The notes below the pieces were generated by a model. That model did no database searches. It was not told the origin of the DNA and saw only the letters and a list, made by a program, of their open reading frames with translations. A stretch of DNA of 64,000 bases from Escherichia coli. GTDB taxonomy: Bacteria; Pseudomonadota; Gammaproteobacteria; Enterobacterales; Enterobacteriaceae. Numbering within the stretch: position 1 is the stretch's first letter; every line of letters begins with the position of its first letter. The stretch is taken from NCBI RefSeq assembly GCF_024700885.2, contig NZ_CP117016.1, one strand, 5' to 3'. Below are positions 27,080 through 51,370 of this stretch, in pieces. Both the position numbers and the translations under genes were made by a program.

Positions 27080-27154
27080 GGGTCAGTCGTATAAAGGTCA
27101 TTACGGAAGGCTGTTAACCTTCTTATCGTGGTTCGAGTCCACGCTGTCCCGCCA
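27080..27154 (+). tRNA. tRNA-like gene, anticodon GTT (Asn-like)
   Basis: Hand-folded cloverleaf: acceptor GGGTCAG/CTGTCCC (one mismatch), anticodon stem GAAGG/CCTTC with loop CTGTTAA, T-arm CGTGG-TTCGAGT-CCACG, discriminator G and CCA. Confidence 0.5.
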
Positions 27155-27159
27155 AATAT

Positions 27160-27235
27160 GCTGGTTTAGCTCCAATGGTAGAGCAGTCGCCTTGTAAACG
27201 AATGGGTAGCGGTTCAAGTCCGTTAACCAGCACCA
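27160..27235 (+). tRNA. tRNA-like gene, anticodon TGT (Thr-like)
   Basis: Acceptor GCTGGTT/AACCAGC, canonical D-arm GCTC-CAATGGTA-GAGC, T-arm AGCGG-TTCAAGT-CCGTT, CCA end; anticodon stem has two mismatches. Confidence 0.5.
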
Positions 27236-37514: not shown

Positions 37515-38933
37515 ATGCCGATTCAGCAACTTCCGCTTATGAAAGGCGTCGGCAAAGACTTTCGAAACGCCGACTATATCGACTATCTGCCAGTGAATAT
37601 GCTGGCTACACCCAAAGAAATCCTGAACAGCAGCGGATATCTTCGCTCATTCCCGGGCATTGCCAAACGTTCTGATGTGAACGGTATATCGCGCGGCGTC
37701 GAGTACAACATGGCGCAGAATGCTGTCTATCGTGTGTGTGGCGGCAAGCTCTACAAAGGCGAAAGCGAGGTCGGTGACGTCGCCGGAAGTGGTCGTGTAT
37801 CAATGGCGCATGGTCGGACATCACAGGCGGTAGGGGTTAAAGGGAAACTGGTCGAGTATCGCTATGATGGCACGGTTAAAACCGTCTCAAACTGGCCTAC
37901 AGACAGCGGATTCACTCAGTATGAGTTAGGTTCAGTTCGCGACATTACGCGCTTGCGTGGGCGTTATGCGTGGTCAAAAGACGGCACTGATTCATGGTTT
38001 ATCACTGACCTTGAAGACGAATCGCATCCTGACCGTTACAGCGCACAATATCGCGCAGAATCGCAGCCGGACGGCATCATCGGCATCGGCACATGGCGAG
38101 ACTTCATCGTCTGCTTTGGTTCATCGACGATTGAATATTTCTCCCTGACTGGTGCAACCACCGTTGGTGCCGCTTTGTATGTCGCACAGCCATCGCTGAT
38201 GGTGCAGAAAGGTATTGCCGGGACTTACTGCAAAACGCCGTTTGCTGATTCGTATGCGTTCATCAGCAATCCGGCAACGGGTGCGCCGTCTGTATACATC
38301 ATCGGCTCCGGTCAGGTATCACCAATCGCCAGCGCGAGCATTGAGAAAATCCTCCGCTCCTACACTGCTGATGAACTGGCTGATGGCGTGATGGAATCAT
38401 TGCGGTTTGATGCTCATGAATTGCTGATTATCCACCTTCCGCGCCATGTTCTTGTTTACGACGCATCTTCAAGCGCCAATGGTCCGCAATGGTGTGTGCT
38501 GAAAACAGGCTTATATGACGATGTGTACCGCGCTATCGACTTCATTTACGAAGGCAATCAGATAACGTGCGGCGATAAGCTGGAATCTGTTACCGGGAAA
38601 TTGCAATTCGATATCAGCAGCCAGTACGACAAGCAACAGGAACATCTGCTGTTTACTCCGCTGTTCAAAGCGGATAACGCAAGAGTGTTCGACCTTGAGG
38701 TTGAATCTTCAACTGGTGTTGCGCAGTACGCCGACCGCCTGTTCCTTTCTGCAACCACTGACGGCATCAATTACGGACGTGAGCAGATGATTGAGCAGAA
38801 TGAACCTTTCGTTTACGACAAACGTGTTTTGTGGAAGCGAGTCGGGCGCATCAGGAAAAATGTCGGCTTCAAATTGCGCGTTATCACGAAGTCACCTGTC
38901 ACTCTGTCTGGCTGCCAGATAAGGATTGAGTAA
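37515..38933 (+). CDS. Tail accessory protein (P22 gp10-like)
   Basis: 472-aa ORF, same length and position as P22 gp10. Confidence 0.7.
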
Positions 38934-39886
38934 TGGCTGATTCGAATCTCAATGAGCCGGTAATCATTCAGGCTACACGACTCGACACATCAGTCCTTCC
39001 ACGCAATATCTTCTCGCAGTCATATCTGCTGTACATTATTGCACAGGGTACTGATGTTGGTAACGTGGCAAACAAGGCCAACGAAGCAGGGAAGGGGGCT
39101 TATGATGCACAGGTGAAGAATGATGAGCAGGATGTCACCCTTGCAAACCATGAATCCAGAATTGAAGCTGCTGAAGCAACTCTCATCAATCATGAACATA
39201 GAATCGCAGAAGCGGAAATCACTCTTGCAGATCATGAAACAAGGATTACGGCTGCCGAAACAGAGCTTGCTGATCACGAGACGCGAATTGCTACCAATGA
39301 ATCTGAGTTAGCAAACCATGATGCGCGAATAACTCAGAATACAACCGATATCGACGCACTTGATACCAGGCTCACAGCGGCAGAGGGAAGTATTTCGACG
39401 CTACAAAGCACAGTTGGTGATCACTCAACAAGAATATCTGCGCTTGAGTATGCCACCACGCGCAAGAAATCAGAGGTTGTTTACTCAGGAGTATCTGTAA
39501 CCATCCCGACAGCGCCGACCAACCTTGTTAGCCTGCTGAAAACGCTCACGCCGTCATCCGGCACATTGGCACCATTCTTCGACACTGTTAACAACAAGAT
39601 GGTTGTGTTCAACGAGAACAAAACCTTGTTCTTCAAGCTGTCGATCGTCGGGACGTGGCCCAGCGGAACCGCCAACAGGTCAATGCAGCTAACCTTTTCC
39701 GGCTCTGTTCCTGACACGTTGGTCAGCAGTCGTAATGCGGCGACAACAACCGACAACATCCTGTTAGCTACGTTCTTCAGCGTGGATAAAGACGGCTTTC
39801 TTGCCACAAATGGCAGCACGTTAACCATTCAGTCGAATGGTGCGGCGTTTACTGCCACAACCATCAAAATCATTGCGGAGCAGTGA
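38933..39886 (+). CDS. Tail needle (P22 gp26-like) with extended coiled coil and C-terminal knob
   Basis: N-terminus [43 protein letters not shown] matches gp26; repeated heptads ([39 protein letters not shown]...); extra ~150-aa C-terminal domain. Confidence 0.8.
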
Positions 39887-44830: not shown

Positions 44831-45379
44831 TTAGTGTAATCTCTGATCGTCTGAATCGTGTAAGAACTCCATGAGACTTTGAACCGGAATTGGTTCTATT
44901 GATGATAATGTGAACACAGGAATATTGAGACTTTTGCAACGCTCAAACACTCCCTTATCATGAGTCCATACCTCGTCAGCATTAATTGCTCTTGCAATTG
45001 CTATTATTTGTCTGTCAAACTTAATTTTGTTTGCTGTACCTTCTGTGCTAATTTTCCTTAATTCTTTTAATGTTGGTATCGATGCGCATTCAATAGCAGC
45101 CAACTCATCAAATGATACAGTTTCGAAGCACGATAACGATTTGATAACATTCAGTTTTTCTTGTTGGTAATCTTTATGGATTCCAACTAAAAACTCCGCC
45201 AATACAGGAGTTGGAACGATGATTGTCCCGTTCTTGTTATCTATTCGATCAACAAGAGCTTCTGCTCTTCTTTTGGCATCTGGAATCTCAGAACCAAGTA
45301 TAGGGTCAGATAATCTATAATCGTGTTCTATATCTGATAGTAGGTATACCAGAATATTGGTATCTAAAATTACTCGCAA
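44831..45379 (-). CDS. PIN-domain nuclease-like protein
   Basis: 182-aa ORF MRVILDTNILVYLL... with acidic residues spaced as in PIN domains (D6, E~62, D~122, WTHDKG); start overlaps the upstream gene. Confidence 0.7.
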   Translation of the reverse strand: MRVILDTNILVYLLSDIEHDYRLSDPILGSEIPDAKRRAEALVDRIDNKNGTIIVPTPVLAEFLVGIHKDYQQEKLNVIKSLSCFETVSFDELAAIECASIPTLKELRKISTEGTANKIKFDRQIIAIARAINADEVWTHDKGVFERCKSLNIPVFTLSSIEPIPVQSLMEFLHDSDDQRLH

Positions 45380-46089
45380 TTTATCTTCCTCAGAGTCCTA
45401 AGGATTGAATCAACATCGCGTTCCTCGGACCACTGATCTCCAGGAACTTGCTTGATAGCATTAATAGCATCCTTGAGTGATGATTTTTTGAGCAATACAA
45501 ATGAAGTTATTTTTAGTTTCTTTAGCTCCCATTTGTTGTTCTTTTTTTCCCAGCACCCATCTCCTTTAACCCTAATATATTTGAATAGATGGGACCCAAG
45601 AGCTGCCGCCAAATCAGGGGTTGCCTCGCACTTGAATGTTTCACCGTTGGCTCCCTCAATACGCACAGGTATTGAGTTGTCTTTTCCGCCAACACTGTAT
45701 AGCCTTCCTTGAACTTCTGACGTTTTTGTTATGAGTAAAGGGATTGGCTCCTTTTTTACTCGCGGGAATGCGATAATGGTTGAGTGGTTTCGTCCGAGTA
45801 GTTTCGCTGAAAAACCATCATGCTCCAGTAAATTAACAATTTTTTGATACGCGGGTGATTTCTCTTTGGCTGAGAGAGAGGCCCTTGCTATGACAGCGTT
45901 ATAACAAATATCATTATCGACCCATGCATTTAAGTCAGCCGATCCTTCACTTACACAGTCGAAGTGAACAGAATCTGCAGAACCGTATAGATCTACGAGA
46001 GCAGACATATACTTGACCAACTTAGCCATTGACAGCTGGCCAGGGGTGGTTCCGTCAAGTTTTAATGTGAGTCCATTGCTTTTTTTCAT
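45370..46089 (-). CDS. Hypothetical protein (239 aa), partner of the PIN-domain gene
   Basis: ORF directly downstream of mnt on the same strand, overlapping the PIN gene by 10 nt; no recognised domain. Confidence 0.6.
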   Translation of the reverse strand: MKKSNGLTLKLDGTTPGQLSMAKLVKYMSALVDLYGSADSVHFDCVSEGSADLNAWVDNDICYNAVIARASLSAKEKSPAYQKIVNLLEHDGFSAKLLGRNHSTIIAFPRVKKEPIPLLITKTSEVQGRLYSVGGKDNSIPVRIEGANGETFKCEATPDLAAALGSHLFKYIRVKGDGCWEKKNNKWELKKLKITSFVLLKKSSLKDAINAIKQVPGDQWSEERDVDSILRTLRKINCE

Positions 46090-47825: not shown

Positions 47826-47844
47826 CAGATAACCAACGCAACGA

Positions 47845-47872
47845 CCTAGCTTCGGCTGGGTTTTTTTATGCC
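47845..47872 (+). terminator. Putative intrinsic terminator after ant
   Basis: Hairpin CCTAGCTTCGGCTGGG followed by TTTTTTTAT. Confidence 0.4.
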
Positions 47873-48209
47873 CAAAATTCACCGTAGCCATGCTGCGGCG
47901 ATTCCTTGTATTTGGAGCAAATTAAATGACAGATATTATAAATAGGAATTGTTATTTAATAATGTTTGAAAATAAAAATCATGGACGATAGGAATAAAGG
48001 TATTACTTGTTTTTATTTTTGTAAGTGACGCATTAAGCGCATAAATAATATGCCTGTTGATCAAGATTCTTGAGTATTGTAAAATAATCGTTTTGTTCAT
48101 GTTGCATGGTTTTTAAATGAATAGAAGGTTATTTTTCAAAACAATTGCATCGTTGTCTGCAGTCATTCCGTTTTCTTCAATATCTAAATCTTCAAACAGG
48201 ATGACTAAT

Positions 48210-50795
48210 ATGCCTGATATAACCCCAAATGTTGTGATAGGTATGCCATCGCAACTCTTCACAATGGCTAGCTCTTTTAAAACCGTAGCAAATGGAAAAA
48301 TTTATATCGGTAAGATTGACACAGATCCGGTAAATCCAGAAAACCAGATTCCAGTATATCTGGAACGAGAAGATGGTACTTATGTTCAGGTGCCACAGCC
48401 AATCGTTATCAATGCTGCTGGATACCCGGTATACAACGGACAGATTTCCAAATTCGTTACCGTGCAAGGCCATTCTATGGCTGTTTACGATGCATATGGT
48501 ACGCAGCAGTTCTATTTTCCGAATGTGCTTAAGTACGATCCTGACCAATTAAGACAACAATTAGAAGACCCGGAAGGTGCTAAAAAATATCATGAATTGC
48601 AGATGTCTCGGTGGCGTGATGACGCTGACCCTCGCGGATGGGGAGCAAAAGGTGATGGCATCACCGATGACACATTATCTTTTCAAGAGTTAGAAAAACA
48701 AATCACAGGAAGGATTGTTGATCTAAGGGGTAATACATATATAACAGATCAAGTTTTTGATGGAAATAAGTATATAAATGGCTATTTTCGCACAGAGAAT
48801 CGATTACTGCCAGATGCTGATTTTACTGAAAAAAGAATACAAACTATAAAAAAGGGGATGTATACAGGTTTCAGACCTTCTACTCCTAATCATGTTAAGT
48901 CAGGGTTGCGACTGGCAACAATTAAAAATACTGTCATACAGGGTGCTGTTCTTGATTATTATGACAGTGTTCTTTATTGCTTGGTAAATGTGAGTGGCAG
49001 CGTTAGTTCTGGTGACGAAGTTAATAAAGTTGTTGCTTATAATTGGTTTGGGAATGAAGAGTTAACTCCTCTTTGGGAGACTAAAGGTAGTAGAGAATTA
49101 GGACATCAATGTCTTGGTTTAACCATAGGGCGCGTTGGTTTTCGTAACACAAGAGGCCAGTTACAGATATGGGGGTTAGCTGGCACAGCTAAAGGAGAGG
49201 ATCGCGCAAAGTATATCACCAGATTCACCCCTACTGATGGTGGTGAAATTGAACCAGAGTTTTTTCTCATATGGGAAGATGGTTACGAGAATCAGGTAAA
49301 TGTTTTATGCACCGACCCTATGAGTCGATGGCTGATTACTACAGCAAAACGTTATGTTGGCCCTGGTGAGAGCCCATCAACACCAGATCAAATTCGCTAT
49401 TATGTAAAAGTATTTGATACCAGCAAATTTATTAACCCGCAGGCGTACAATTACGATTATCGTAATGAAGCAACTTTTGAATTTGAAATTGCCGATTTTG
49501 TGAGGGATATGCAAACAGTTGCGTGTGACGGTACTGCTATTTATTTTTGTCAGGCTGGATCTGCATATTCTTCAACCAGAAAATATTTGCATCAGTACAC
49601 ACTTGATGGTGTTTATCTTGGGGTGCAGCAAATACAGGCAGGTGCAGGAAGAGCCTATGAAATAGCAGATCCAAATGATACCGGAACGCCAGATGTTAGC
49701 AATCTTACATATGAACCAGAAGCAATGTTTTTCCGTATGATTGCAGGTGGGTATGACCTTGTAATGGGGAATACAAATGGCATACCAGATGGTGATAGTG
49801 GGCGAGAAACTACATTTTACACATTAATGCCACAACAGGTAATGCATGTAAAAACAACATCAAGAAATCAGCCTGGTATTATCATTGATTCAACCCATGA
49901 TATTGTCACTAACTCTGGTTTGTTAAGCCTTGGTAAAATTATGCCTGGTGGTGAAGTCATAGAGCAGGCAAACCTTGATGACAAAGGATTCACTGTTTCG
50001 AGGGCAACAACACAAGCCGCCCGTTATGATGCAAAGAATACGTTACGGAATGTAACTTTTCATGTTAGTGAAAAAGGTGATACCGGTATTTATGACTTTA
50101 CCAATGCTCAATGGATATTTAAATCTCCCTTATCAACATCTTCATATTCGTATATCGGTCAGTCAGCGGAGGTTAATGGCTATATAAGTGCTAATAAAGA
50201 TAATACGTCATCATGTGGGACATCATCTAAACGGTGGACGCAAGTATATGCAACTAATGGGGCAATAAATACTTCAGACCAGACATTGAAAACAAAGCCA
50301 CTGACAGTAGAGCAACTTTCAGAAATCATGGAGGTGGATCAGGATGCAATTCTTGACGCATGGGGTGACGTAAATATTATCGTTTACCAGTGGTTGTCCG
50401 ATATTAAGGCTAAAGGTTCGGATACTGCTCGTTGGCATTTCGGAGCAATTGCACAGCAGGTAAGAGATGCGTTTCTTGCAAAGGGGATAGATGGAACAAG
50501 ATTTGGCTTGCTATGTCATGATAAATGGGATGATGAGTACCAACCTGTAATGGCACAGCGCAAGGTGTCATTTATAGCTAAATCCCCTGAAGGGGAAGAC
50601 ATCGTTCGCGAATACTTTGAAGAATACGATACTGGTGACACGGAACTGGTTGTACATGCTGGTGAGCGTTGGGGATTGCGTCCAGATGAATGTTTGTGGT
50701 TGGAGGCTGCATTCCAGCGAAGAAGGTGTGAACGCATTGAGTCTCGTTTAACAGAGCTTGAATTGATAATTAAAAAAGCAAAAGAGATAGAGTAG
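48210..50795 (+). CDS. Tailspike: P22-like head-binding N-domain, distinct beta-helix-like receptor-binding body, C-terminal chaperone-like domain
   Basis: Start at ATG 48210 ([50 protein letters not shown]...); [11 protein letters not shown] motif; C-terminal segment ([10 protein letters not shown]...[13 protein letters not shown]...[11 protein letters not shown]) resembles auto-cleaving intramolecular chaperone domains. Confidence 0.85.
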
Positions 50796-51083
50796 ATGGA
50801 TAAAACCCCAATTCATCACGCACTTTGCGCTGTGGTCGCACAGGTACTGGTTGGTCTTTTTACCGGAAACTGGGCTTACGGTGCGATAGCCGGTTGTACG
50901 TTCTTCATTGCTCGTGAACACACCCAGGCAGAATATCGCTGGATTGAAATGTTCGGGCATGGCAAGCGGATTAACATGCCGTGGTGGGGCGGTTTTGATC
51001 CGCGTGCATGGGATGTGGCAAGCCTGATGGATTTTTCTTTCCCAATTATCGGATGCTTATTGGTATGGATTCTTGCATCGTAG
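50796..51083 (+). CDS. Hypothetical small membrane protein (95 aa)
   Basis: ATG overlapping tailspike stop; hydrophobic segments; last gene before the attP P arm. Confidence 0.45.
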   Translation: MDKTPIHHALCAVVAQVLVGLFTGNWAYGAIAGCTFFIAREHTQAEYRWIEMFGHGKRINMPWWGGFDPRAWDVASLMDFSFPIIGCLLVWILAS

Positions 51084-51370
51084 TTAACACAGAGTTACCT
51101 ATGAGACAAAACTAAGGTACACAAAGCTTTGCACTGGATTGCAAGGCTTTGTTCTTCTCTGGAGTGTGACATGTTTTTATGACAAAAAATTAGCGCAAGA
51201 AGACAAAAAATCACCTTGCGCTAATGCTCTGTTACAGGTCACTAATACTATCTAAGTGGTTGATTCATAGTGACTGGATATGTTGTGTTTTGTAGCATTA
51301 TGTAGTCTATTTTTTAGACCAAAGATATTGTAACACATTGATATTAATGGATTTTAATGTTTCACGTTCA

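What the first reader, a model, noticed from the sequence alone, without database searches (positions are those of the whole stretch)
48210..50795. Chimeric tailspike: P22-type head-binding domain, different receptor-binding body, C-terminal chaperone-like domain
The first ~110 residues match the P22/HK620-type tailspike head-binding domain. The central ~550 residues are unrelated to the P22 body and begin with a [11 protein letters not shown] motif typical of beta-helix glycosidases/depolymerases. The last ~150 residues ([10 protein letters not shown] ... [13 protein letters not shown] ... [11 protein letters not shown]) resemble auto-cleaving intramolecular chaperone domains of tail fibres and endosialidases. 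Host receptor specificity is therefore likely different from P22/HK620 and may involve capsule or O-antigen depolymerase activity.
Basis: partly seen in the sequence, partly recalled or inferred. Interest (0 to 1): 0.6.

Follow-up and report, generated by a model that had tools for sequence, protein, structure and literature searches.

The report
Mosaic P22-type tailspike with propeller body
This E. coli prophage gene encodes a patchwork tailspike whose host-recognition body is not the expected beta-helix enzyme but a five-bladed beta-propeller, so far structurally characterised only in the receptor-binding proteins of phages of Gram-positive bacteria (Staphylococcus, Brochothrix); it is an uncommon but explicable module swap.

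Summary
Window 48210-50795 (+) is an intact 861-aa tailspike gene at the end of a complete P22-like prophage. Residues 1-113 are a P22-type head-binding domain (Pfam E 4e-61). Residues 689-861 are a Peptidase_S74 self-cleaving chaperone domain, with the Ser689/Lys694 pair aligned to the catalytic pair of endosialidase NF.

The polar residues conserved across the family align with the pocket proposed to bind GlcNAc in phi11. Depolymerase activity is neither shown nor excluded. The receptor is unknown: nearly identical copies sit in O15 and O7 strains at three attachment sites.

The core is rare, with 22 clusters in 1.84 billion representatives and no BLAST-level match in sequenced phages. It is a new variant of a known modular design.

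The parts
48197..48200 (+). Shine-Dalgarno-like AGGA, 9 nt upstream of the start codon
   Evidence: Read directly from the sequence. It supports ATG 48210 over the in-frame ATGs at 48201 and 48117.
48210..50795 (+). Tailspike coding sequence, 861 aa plus stop
   Evidence: ORF list. Same coordinates as RefSeq CDS WP_257843061.1 'phage tailspike protein'.
48210..48548 (+). Residues 1-113: P22-type head-binding domain, which attaches the spike to the tail hub
   Evidence: Pfam PF09008, E 4.2e-61. Sf6 and P22 tailspike N-termini in the PDB, E 1e-41 to 2e-58.
48549..48800 (+). Residues 114-197: conserved joint ([42 protein letters not shown]) and small cap domain of the endosialidase N-terminal-extension type
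   Evidence: Pfam End_N_terminal at residues 146-193, E 1.9e-4. 69% identity to the CUS-3 tailspike over residues 1-197. The joint matches tailspike 9vvr_A residues 214-257, E 7e-14, and Dpo31 residues 223-287. DNA similarity to hundreds of other E. coli tailspike genes ends at nt ~465, which is residue 155.
48822..49829 (+). Residues ~205-540: five-bladed beta-propeller, the predicted receptor-binding platform. Conserved pocket residues are Q244, H299, Q300, Q435, D440, Y445, E502 and E504.
49830..50273 (+). Residues 541-688: beta-rich stalk with the tail-fibre motif [23 protein letters not shown], ending at the cleavage site
   Evidence: Strands at model pLDDT 63-80, lower towards the end. 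phrog_1171 tail spike covers residues 587-851. Weak End_tail_spike match at residues 658-688. Matches stalk regions of endosialidase NF, the T5 L-shaped tail fibre and other fibres.
50274..50792 (+). Residues 689-861: Peptidase_S74 intramolecular chaperone domain. The predicted nucleophile is Ser689 (50274-50276) and the general base is Lys694 (50289-50291).
   Evidence: Pfam PF13884, E 2e-9. 3gw6, E 4e-33, with Ser and Lys aligned. Aligned to SDGTLK of CUS-3.
50796..51083 (+). 95-aa predicted small membrane protein that starts immediately after the tailspike stop. It accompanies the tailspike in all four genomic contexts examined, but it is a general lambdoid gene and probably not part of the spike.
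   Evidence: phrog_1443, function unknown. No NCBIfam match. 84-88% identical copies in phage 21, lambda-like phages, Gally and JEP4. Contexts.
51121..51152 (+). Terminator-like hairpin that closes the tailspike-plus-ORF unit before the prophage/host junction next to ybhB
   Evidence: Consensus scan only.

Best explanation
The gene encodes the receptor-recognising tailspike of a complete P22-like (Lederbergvirus-type) prophage. It is built from five exchangeable modules.

(1) The N-terminal head-binding domain docks the trimer on the tail hub (shown by homology).

(2) A conserved ~45-residue joint plus a small cap containing [11 protein letters not shown] is the recombination seam. DNA similarity to other tailspike genes stops at this point (shown).

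(3) A five-bladed beta-propeller, homologous to the 'platform' of Staphylococcus phage receptor-binding proteins, presents a polar pocket at the propeller axis. The pocket is formed by Q244, H299/Q300, Q435 and E502/E504, with D440 and Y445 nearby in the same blade motif. I infer that this pocket binds a sugar unit of a host surface glycan, possibly one containing GlcNAc. The basis is that the aligned residues line the pocket proposed to hold GlcNAc in phi11 Gp45.

(4) A beta-rich stalk follows the propeller.

(5) An S74 chaperone domain drives trimer folding and then cuts itself off at Ser689, using Lys694 (inferred from conserved residues and from the endosialidase NF and CUS-3 precedents).

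In design it is a CUS-3-type endosialidase tailspike in which the six-bladed sialidase propeller has been replaced by a five-bladed one.

I commit to glycan recognition by the propeller as the function. I consider backbone cleavage possible but less likely than not, at about 35%. The receptor is probably not a single O-antigen type, because near-identical spikes occur in O15 and O7 strains.
For: Architecture:
- Pfam, PDB and PHROG hits for the two ends.
- The CUS-3 tailspike aligns only to residues 1-197 (69% identity) and 656-851 (35% identity).

Central fold:
- The query core alone has no Pfam, PHROG or PDB match.
- A profile of 24 family members hits the P68 fibre, the 80alpha RBP and the phi11 RBP by sequence.
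- 7 of 24 members hit PF21311, the phage five-bladed propeller platform family.
- The AF2 model has pLDDT 77.8.

Pocket:
- Family-invariant residues are G298, H299, Q300, D440, Y445, E502 and E504; Q244 and Q435 are near-invariant.
- Q244 and M434-Q435 align to 80alpha M164-Q165 and M329-Q330. The GHQ loop aligns to the loop that carries T211.
- These are the residues reported to line the modelled GlcNAc cavity of phi11 Gp45 (PMC4901313).

Context:
- The prophage has terminase, portal, coat, gp4-like and gp10-like proteins, a knobbed tail needle and ejection proteins upstream, and an integrase.

Portability:
- 60-70% identical cores sit behind other adaptors: a T7 tail-fibre N-terminus, a TSP1/gp66-type N-terminus, and others.

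Lysogens:
- O15 in MLI114. O7 in EC0026B, E100341, H1827/12, AST19 and AST205.
- Three attachment sites.
Against: - The fold rests on a monomer AlphaFold model built from only 24 sequences. Trimer geometry, pocket geometry and blade closure could not be inspected.
- The query itself does not reach the PF21311 threshold. hhalign to the 80alpha platform gives only 87% probability.
- GlcNAc binding in phi11 is itself a modelling proposal; soaking failed (PMC4901313).
- All characterised P22-type tailspikes I know of are enzymes (my own knowledge). That argues against a purely lectin-like spike.
- In the O7 lineage the gene lies in a 15-kb prophage remnant, so those hosts say little about the receptor.
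Confidence: 0.72

Rival explanations
1. The propeller is a genuine enzyme: a depolymerase or glycan-modifying hydrolase, lyase or phosphodiesterase. It would use the invariant His299, Glu502/Glu504 and Asp440 at the propeller axis to cut or edit a capsule, O-antigen or other surface polymer, so that the short P22-type tail can reach the outer membrane.
For: - Strictly invariant acid/base residues persist across a family only 19-26% identical at its distant end, drawn from phages of evidently different hosts.
- After the phage receptor-binding proteins, the nearest structural neighbours are largely five-bladed enzymes: glutaminyl cyclases and GH68, GH32 and GH43 hydrolases.
- The phi11 authors made the same observation.
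- The architectural template, the CUS-3/K1F endosialidase, is an enzyme at the same position.
- Podovirus tailspikes characterised so far are enzymes (my own knowledge).
Against: - The same residue constellation (Q, H, Q, D, Y, E-x-E) is kept in the Staphylococcus receptor-binding proteins. Only wall-teichoic-acid binding has been described for those, not catalysis.
- There is no sequence match to any CAZy-type family in Pfam or NCBIfam.
- D440 and Y445 belong to a repeated blade motif (Q..D..Y also occurs at residues 244-256), so they may be structural.
Confidence: 0.35
2. The body is a right-handed parallel beta-helix glycosidase or lyase, as in P22, Sf6 and HK620 and most depolymerases.
For: The [11 protein letters not shown] motif matches the first turns or cap of beta-helix proteins: Dpo31, glucan 1,3-beta-glucosidase 3eqn, beta-1,3-glucanase 5m5z, the phiAB6 tailspike and the Sf6 tailspike. 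One of the 24 family members hits PF12708 over this cap.
Against: - The model shows 20 antiparallel strands in five four-stranded sheets, not helical coils.
- Matches to beta-helix proteins end within about 60 residues of the motif.
- In Dpo31 that segment straddles the end of the coiled coil and the first turns only.
Confidence: 0.02
3. The body is a highly diverged endosialidase (GH58) six-bladed sialidase propeller, so the spike still degrades polysialic acid or a related acidic capsule.
For: - The flanking modules are endosialidase-like: End_N_terminal, a weak End_tail_spike match, and S74.
- The best phage-genome matches are K1-type tailspikes.
- Foldseek lists endosialidase NF at E 3e-9, and K1E and K1F-like spikes appear in BFVD.
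Against: - There is no significant sequence similarity between residues 198-655 and the CUS-3 endosialidase.
- There is no End_beta_propel hit.
- The family profile hits five-bladed phage platforms, not sialidases.
- TM-scores to endosialidase NF are about 0.25.
Confidence: 0.04

Closest known systems
CUS-3 endosialidase tailspike (E. coli K1 P22-like prophage; ABQ88383.1) and K1F endosialidase NF
   Same: Same order of modules: P22 head-binding domain, conserved joint and GxxGDGxxDDT cap, a propeller body, a stalk, and an S74 self-cleaving chaperone. Identity is 69% over residues 1-197 and 35% over residues 656-851. The gene position after the immI/ant region is also the same.
   Different: The catalytic six-bladed sialidase propeller, with its inserted barrel, is replaced by an unrelated five-bladed propeller. 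There is no significant similarity over residues 198-655. No sialidase function can be assumed.
Receptor-binding proteins of Staphylococcus phages phi11 (Gp45, 5efv), 80alpha (gp61, 6v8i) and P68 (gp17, 6iab), and Brochothrix phage NF5 (9m7x); Pfam PF21311 Phage_RBD_prop
   Different: Those proteins have coiled-coil stems and C-terminal 'tower' domains. They lack a head-binding domain, an endosialidase-type cap and an S74 domain. They infect Gram-positive hosts and bind wall teichoic acid. Sequence identity is only 12-14%.
Bacillus phage GA-1 neck appendage protein (Q9FZW3; its chaperone domain is PDB 3gud)
   Same: Best match among predicted viral structures (Foldseek E 2.5e-20 over 545 columns). 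Its S74 domain also matches by sequence (3gud, E 1e-12 to 4e-14). It appears to share the cap, propeller, stalk and chaperone layout on a podovirus.
   Different: Gram-positive phi29-like phage with a different N-terminal anchor and 16% identity. The comparison is with a predicted structure, and I did not inspect it in detail.
Tail spike protein gp76 of E. coli N4-like phage Pollock (AIX12435.1, 1085 aa)
   Same: A distant member of the same family in an isolated coliphage. hhalign against the family profile gives probability 99.85%, E 1e-30, over 507 columns covering the cap, the propeller (LGHQ and ESEG motifs), the stalk and S74.
   Different: About 23% identity, with an N4-type N-terminal region of ~380 residues. 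Its receptor and activity are uncharacterised; the only annotation is 'endosialidase N-terminal extension'.
Sf6, P22 and HK620 tailspikes
   Same: Head-binding domain (Sf6 residues 1-118, near-identical) and the same role and gene position in a P22-like virion.
   Different: Their bodies are right-handed beta-helix endoglycosidases without a cleaved chaperone domain.

Membership tests
P22-like (Lederbergvirus) tailspike | N-terminal head-binding domain (PF09008) | tested here: met
   E 4.2e-61 over residues 1-113. PDB matches to Sf6 and P22 N-termini.
P22-like (Lederbergvirus) tailspike | Encoded downstream of the ejection-protein and immI genes of a P22-like morphogenetic module | tested here: met
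   RefSeq context. PHROG assignments of portal, coat, gp4-like and gp10-like proteins, tail needle and ejection proteins.
P22-like (Lederbergvirus) tailspike | Right-handed parallel beta-helix catalytic body, as in P22, Sf6 and HK620 | tested here: not met
   P22 and Sf6 similarity ends at residue ~118. The model and fold searches give a five-bladed propeller.
Bacteriophage endosialidase tailspike (GH58; CUS-3, K1F, K1E) | N-terminal extension or cap (PF12218) | tested here: met
   E 1.9e-4 at residues 146-193. 69% identity to CUS-3 over residues 1-197.
Bacteriophage endosialidase tailspike (GH58; CUS-3, K1F, K1E) | Six-bladed sialidase beta-propeller catalytic domain (PF12217) | tested here: not met
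Bacteriophage endosialidase tailspike (GH58; CUS-3, K1F, K1E) | Stalk domain (PF12219 End_tail_spike) | tested here: inconclusive
   Only the last ~30 positions match, at E 0.14-0.23. phmmer to 3gw6 begins at residue 648.
Phage five-bladed propeller receptor-binding platform (PF21311, phi11 Gp45 type) | Match to the family HMM | tested here: inconclusive
   The query alone gives no hit. 7 of 24 homologues hit at E<=1e-3, best 1.7e-9. The family profile hits 6iab, 6v8i and 5efv at E 5e-7 to 5e-4. hhalign to the 80alpha platform gives 87% probability, E 4e-6.
Phage five-bladed propeller receptor-binding platform (PF21311, phi11 Gp45 type) | Five-bladed, four-stranded-blade propeller fold closest to the solved phage platforms | tested here: met
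Phage five-bladed propeller receptor-binding platform (PF21311, phi11 Gp45 type) | Conserved axial pocket residues (phi11 Gln165, Thr211 loop, Gln330) | tested here: met
   Q244 aligns to Q165, M434-Q435 to M329-Q330, and the GHQ loop to the GGHGTH loop. Residue roles are from PMC4901313.
Phage five-bladed propeller receptor-binding platform (PF21311, phi11 Gp45 type) | Binds a host cell-wall glycan (GlcNAc on teichoic acid in the type members) | not testable with these tools
   Needs binding assays. Lysogen serotypes O15 and O7 give no consistent clue.
Peptidase S74 intramolecular chaperone domain | Sequence match to the domain | tested here: met
   PF13884, E 2e-9. 3gw6, E 4e-33. Also GA-1 3gud and T5 LTF 4uw8.
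Peptidase S74 intramolecular chaperone domain | Catalytic Ser and Lys five residues apart at the domain start | tested here: met
   S689-D-Q-T-L-K694 aligns with A911(S911A)...K916 of 3gw6 and with SDGTLK of CUS-3.
Peptidase S74 intramolecular chaperone domain | Autoproteolytic release after trimer assembly | not testable with these tools
   Requires expression and SDS-PAGE or mass spectrometry.
Beta-helix depolymerase (Pectate_lyase_3-like) | GxxGDGxTDDT cap motif followed by stacked parallel beta-helix coils | tested here: not met
   The motif is present. What follows is a propeller.

The most novel reading that the evidence does not exclude
The phi11/P68-type five-bladed 'platform' is not a passive lectin. 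On this reading it is an unrecognised family of phage glycan-processing enzymes with an invariant His / Glu-x-Glu / Asp centre, shared by phages of Gram-positive and Gram-negative hosts. The E. coli clade would act on a serotype-independent polymer such as ECA, PNAG or the LPS core, which would explain why the same spike occurs in O7 and O15 strains and on at least five different virion adaptors.
Probability: 0.2. Interest if true: 0.7.

Novelty: new variant of a known kind. Interest (0 to 1): 0.42.

Why it matters
Tailspike bodies decide which bacteria a phage or an engineered phage-derived tool can attack.

This gene shows that the endosialidase-style chassis (head-binding adaptor, conserved joint, stalk, self-cleaving chaperone) can carry a completely different propeller. 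That propeller was previously characterised structurally only in receptor-binding proteins of Staphylococcus and Brochothrix phages.

It also defines a small, uncharacterised enterobacterial clade of that propeller with a conserved pocket. The clade includes the tail spike of the isolated coliphage Pollock. This gives concrete residues and constructs for finding the receptor, and for testing whether this propeller family is catalytic.

It is also a caution for annotation: the GDGxTDD motif does not by itself predict a beta-helix.

Tried and rejected
Structure prediction and searches:
- Full-length AlphaFold with a 3-sequence alignment gave an unusable model (pLDDT 35). It was replaced by a module model built from 24 homologues.
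- Searches with the query core alone found nothing in Pfam, PHROGs, NCBIfam, PDB sequences or 50,697 phage genomes. The weak antibody hits are chance.
- The word-indexed protein search with the family alignment added only close relatives.

Inferring the receptor from lysogen serotype:
- MLI114 is O15.
- EC0026B, E100341, H1827/12, AST19 and AST205 are O7, but there the gene lies in a prophage remnant.
- The O type of SW070919 was not found; two calls landed in prophage or IS regions.
- A3 and A26 were not checked.
- No receptor could be assigned.

Strain papers gave ST484 for EC0026B but no serotype or phage data.

Considered and rejected:
- A beta-helix body.
- A diverged sialidase propeller.
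- The longer ORF from 48117. Its signal-peptide-like extension has no ribosome-binding site and precedes the position homologous to the P22 gp9 start.
- A functional link between the spike and the downstream 95-aa ORF, which is widespread in lambdoid phages with other fibres.
Full report
**What is there**

The window is E. coli chromosome, 100% identical over the gene to strain MLI114. It carries a roughly 40-kb P22-like prophage at the lambda attachment site, between ybhC and ybhB-bioA.

The prophage has an integrase, terminase, portal, coat, gp4-like and gp10-like connector proteins, a knobbed tail needle and ejection proteins. An immI-like region with Arc-family repressors and an antirepressor follows.

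The last structural gene is the finding: 48210-50795 (+), 861 aa, which RefSeq also calls a phage tailspike protein. The ATG at 48210 has an AGGA 9 nt upstream and corresponds to the start of P22 and Sf6 tailspikes. The longer ORF from 48117 is unlikely to be used.

- Residues 1-113 are a head-binding domain (PF09008, E 4e-61). They are almost identical to the Sf6 tailspike N-terminus (7sg7, E 2e-58). Similarity to P22 and Sf6 stops at about residue 118.
- Residues 689-861 are a Peptidase_S74 intramolecular chaperone domain (PF13884, E 2e-9).
- Residues 648-851 match the crystal structure of the endosialidase NF chaperone domain at E 4e-33.
- S689-D-Q-T-L-K694 sits on the S911(A)/K916 catalytic positions of that structure. 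It also sits on SDGTLK of the CUS-3 tailspike.

**The joint**

The [11 protein letters not shown] motif (residues 145-155) lies inside a conserved segment, [42 protein letters not shown].

- The segment recurs almost verbatim in another solved tailspike (9vvr_A residues 214-257, E 7e-14).
- It recurs in CUS-3, which is 69% identical over residues 1-197.
- It recurs in a 789-aa homologue that has a different N-terminus (P0002).
- Pfam assigns residues 146-193 to the endosialidase N-terminal extension.
- The same motif opens beta-helix domains in Dpo31, fungal glucanases and the phiAB6 tailspike. In Dpo31 the matched stretch spans the end of the coiled coil and the first helix turns.

So the motif marks a cap that can precede either a helix or a propeller.

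Megablast similarity of this gene to about 460 other E. coli tailspike genes ends at nt ~465, which is residue 155. That makes this cap the recombination seam.

**The body**

Residues ~198-655 have no significant similarity to CUS-3. The core (195-560) matches nothing in Pfam, PHROGs or the PDB when searched alone, and nothing in 50,697 phage genomes at tblastn E<=0.01.

An exhaustive HMM search of 1.84 billion cluster representatives found only 22 proteins at E<=1e-3 and six at E<=1e-30. All are tail-fibre or tailspike-like proteins with varied ends.

An alignment of 24 family modules (A3) changed the picture:

- Its profile hits the P68 tail fibre (E 5e-7), the 80alpha receptor-binding protein (4e-5) and the phi11 receptor-binding protein (5e-4).
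- Seven of the 24 members individually match PF21311, the phage five-bladed propeller receptor-binding platform.
- AlphaFold2 with this alignment gave a usable model: mean pLDDT 77.8, core mostly 85-95, with twenty strands in five four-stranded blades.
- The top eight Foldseek hits are the same phage platforms.
- Among predicted viral structures the best match is the Bacillus phage GA-1 neck appendage (E 2.5e-20). Its S74 domain also matches by sequence.

The body is therefore a five-bladed propeller. It is neither a beta-helix nor a sialidase-type six-bladed propeller.

**The pocket**

The invariant columns of the family are G298-H299-Q300, D440, Y445, G467, E502 and E504. Q244, W321, D416 and Q435 are nearly invariant.

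In both the HMMER and the hhalign alignments:

- Q244 and M434-Q435 fall on 80alpha/phi11 M164-Q165 and M329-Q330.
- The GHQ loop falls on the loop that carries T211.
- E502-x-E504 falls on E-A-E in 80alpha and E-P-E in P68.

Gln165, Thr211, Gln330, Met164 and Met329 are the residues that the phi11 structure paper describes as lining a cavity the size of a GlcNAc. GlcNAc is the wall-teichoic-acid component that phage needs. The authors note that soaking failed (PMC4901313). The P68 and 80alpha papers also treat the platform as the receptor-binding site and report no catalysis.

I conclude that the E. coli propeller recognises a surface glycan through the homologous pocket. Whether it also cleaves the glycan is open.

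- For catalysis: the invariant acid/base residues, the enzyme-rich set of structural neighbours, and the enzymatic nature of characterised podovirus spikes (the last from my own knowledge).
- Against catalysis: the same residues are retained in the Staphylococcus proteins, which are described only as binders, and no glycosidase family matches by sequence.

**Distribution and receptor**

The gene is present in 13 of 5,426 complete E. coli genomes at 99.5% identity or more. Its 90% cluster has 147 member sequences in read-set assemblies.

It sits at three attachment sites:

- attLambda in MLI114.
- sbcB|dacD in EC0026B and E100341, where the prophage is a ~15-kb remnant about 40 kb from the O-antigen locus.
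- torS|torT in SW070919.

MLI114 has an O15 gene cluster. EC0026B, E100341, H1827/12, AST19 and AST205 have O7. No common O type emerges. By the logic used in PMC10408124, that argues against strict O-antigen specificity, although the remnant status of the O7 copies weakens the argument.

Cores 60-70% identical to this one are fused to other anchors:

- A T7 tail-fibre N-terminus (P0029).
- TSP1/gp66-type N-termini (P0027, P0028).
- A 923-aa E. coli prophage protein (P0026).
- A spike in a multi-spike phage contig (P0002).

The 1085-aa tail spike of the isolated N4-like coliphage Pollock is a distant member (hhalign probability 99.85%, E 1e-30). Its function is not known.

**Verdict**

The protein is a new variant of a well-known modular design: a CUS-3-style chassis carrying a phi11/P68-type five-bladed propeller.

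The architecture is well supported by independent sequence-profile and predicted-structure evidence. The ligand, the possible catalytic activity and the autoprocessing are inferred and need experiments.

Noticed in passing
window 44831-46089 (- strand): A PIN-domain protein (182 aa) overlaps by a few codons with an upstream 239-aa hypothetical protein. The pair is inserted between the ejection-protein genes and the Arc/Mnt-like immI genes. It may be a toxin-antitoxin or defence moron.
   Followed up: no
window 50796-51083 (+): A 95-aa predicted small membrane protein starts at the base after the tailspike stop codon. It follows this tailspike in all four contexts examined. It is also found (84-88% identical) in phage 21, lambda-like phages, Gally and JEP4. 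PHROG 1443, function unknown.
   Followed up: partly
window 48117-48209 (+): The in-frame upstream extension of the tailspike ORF would encode a signal-peptide-like sequence ([21 protein letters not shown]...). It is probably untranslated leader: a terminator-like hairpin lies at 47843-47862 and a promoter-like site at 48057-48085.
   Followed up: partly
window 27080-27235 (+): The prophage carries tandem tRNA-Asn(GTT) and tRNA-Thr(TGT) genes.
   Followed up: no
window 38933-39886 (+): The tail needle protein has a C-terminal knob domain (PHROG 'tail needle knob'), as in Sf6-type rather than P22-type needles. It may contribute to secondary receptor contact.
   Followed up: no
L010 (NZ_OX460336.1 1844055-1859517): In the O7/ST484 lineage the tailspike is intact (99.8% identical) inside a ~15-kb deleted P22-like prophage remnant between sbcB and dacD. 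All head genes are gone, yet the ejection-protein genes, the spike and the 95-aa ORF remain. Why the spike stays intact is unexplained.
   Followed up: partly
L008 20236-22469 (NZ_CP117013.1 1998235-2000468): In MLI114, two ISAs1-family transposase genes (one partial) sit between galF and the O15 wzx gene. They might affect O-antigen expression in the strain that carries the intact prophage.
   Followed up: no
L009 21440-33232 (NZ_OX460336.1 3141439-3153231): In EC0026B the lambda attachment site (ybhC|ybhB) is occupied by a different, degraded prophage. It carries two acyltransferase-family genes and a truncated Acb1 (anti-CBASS) gene.
   Followed up: no
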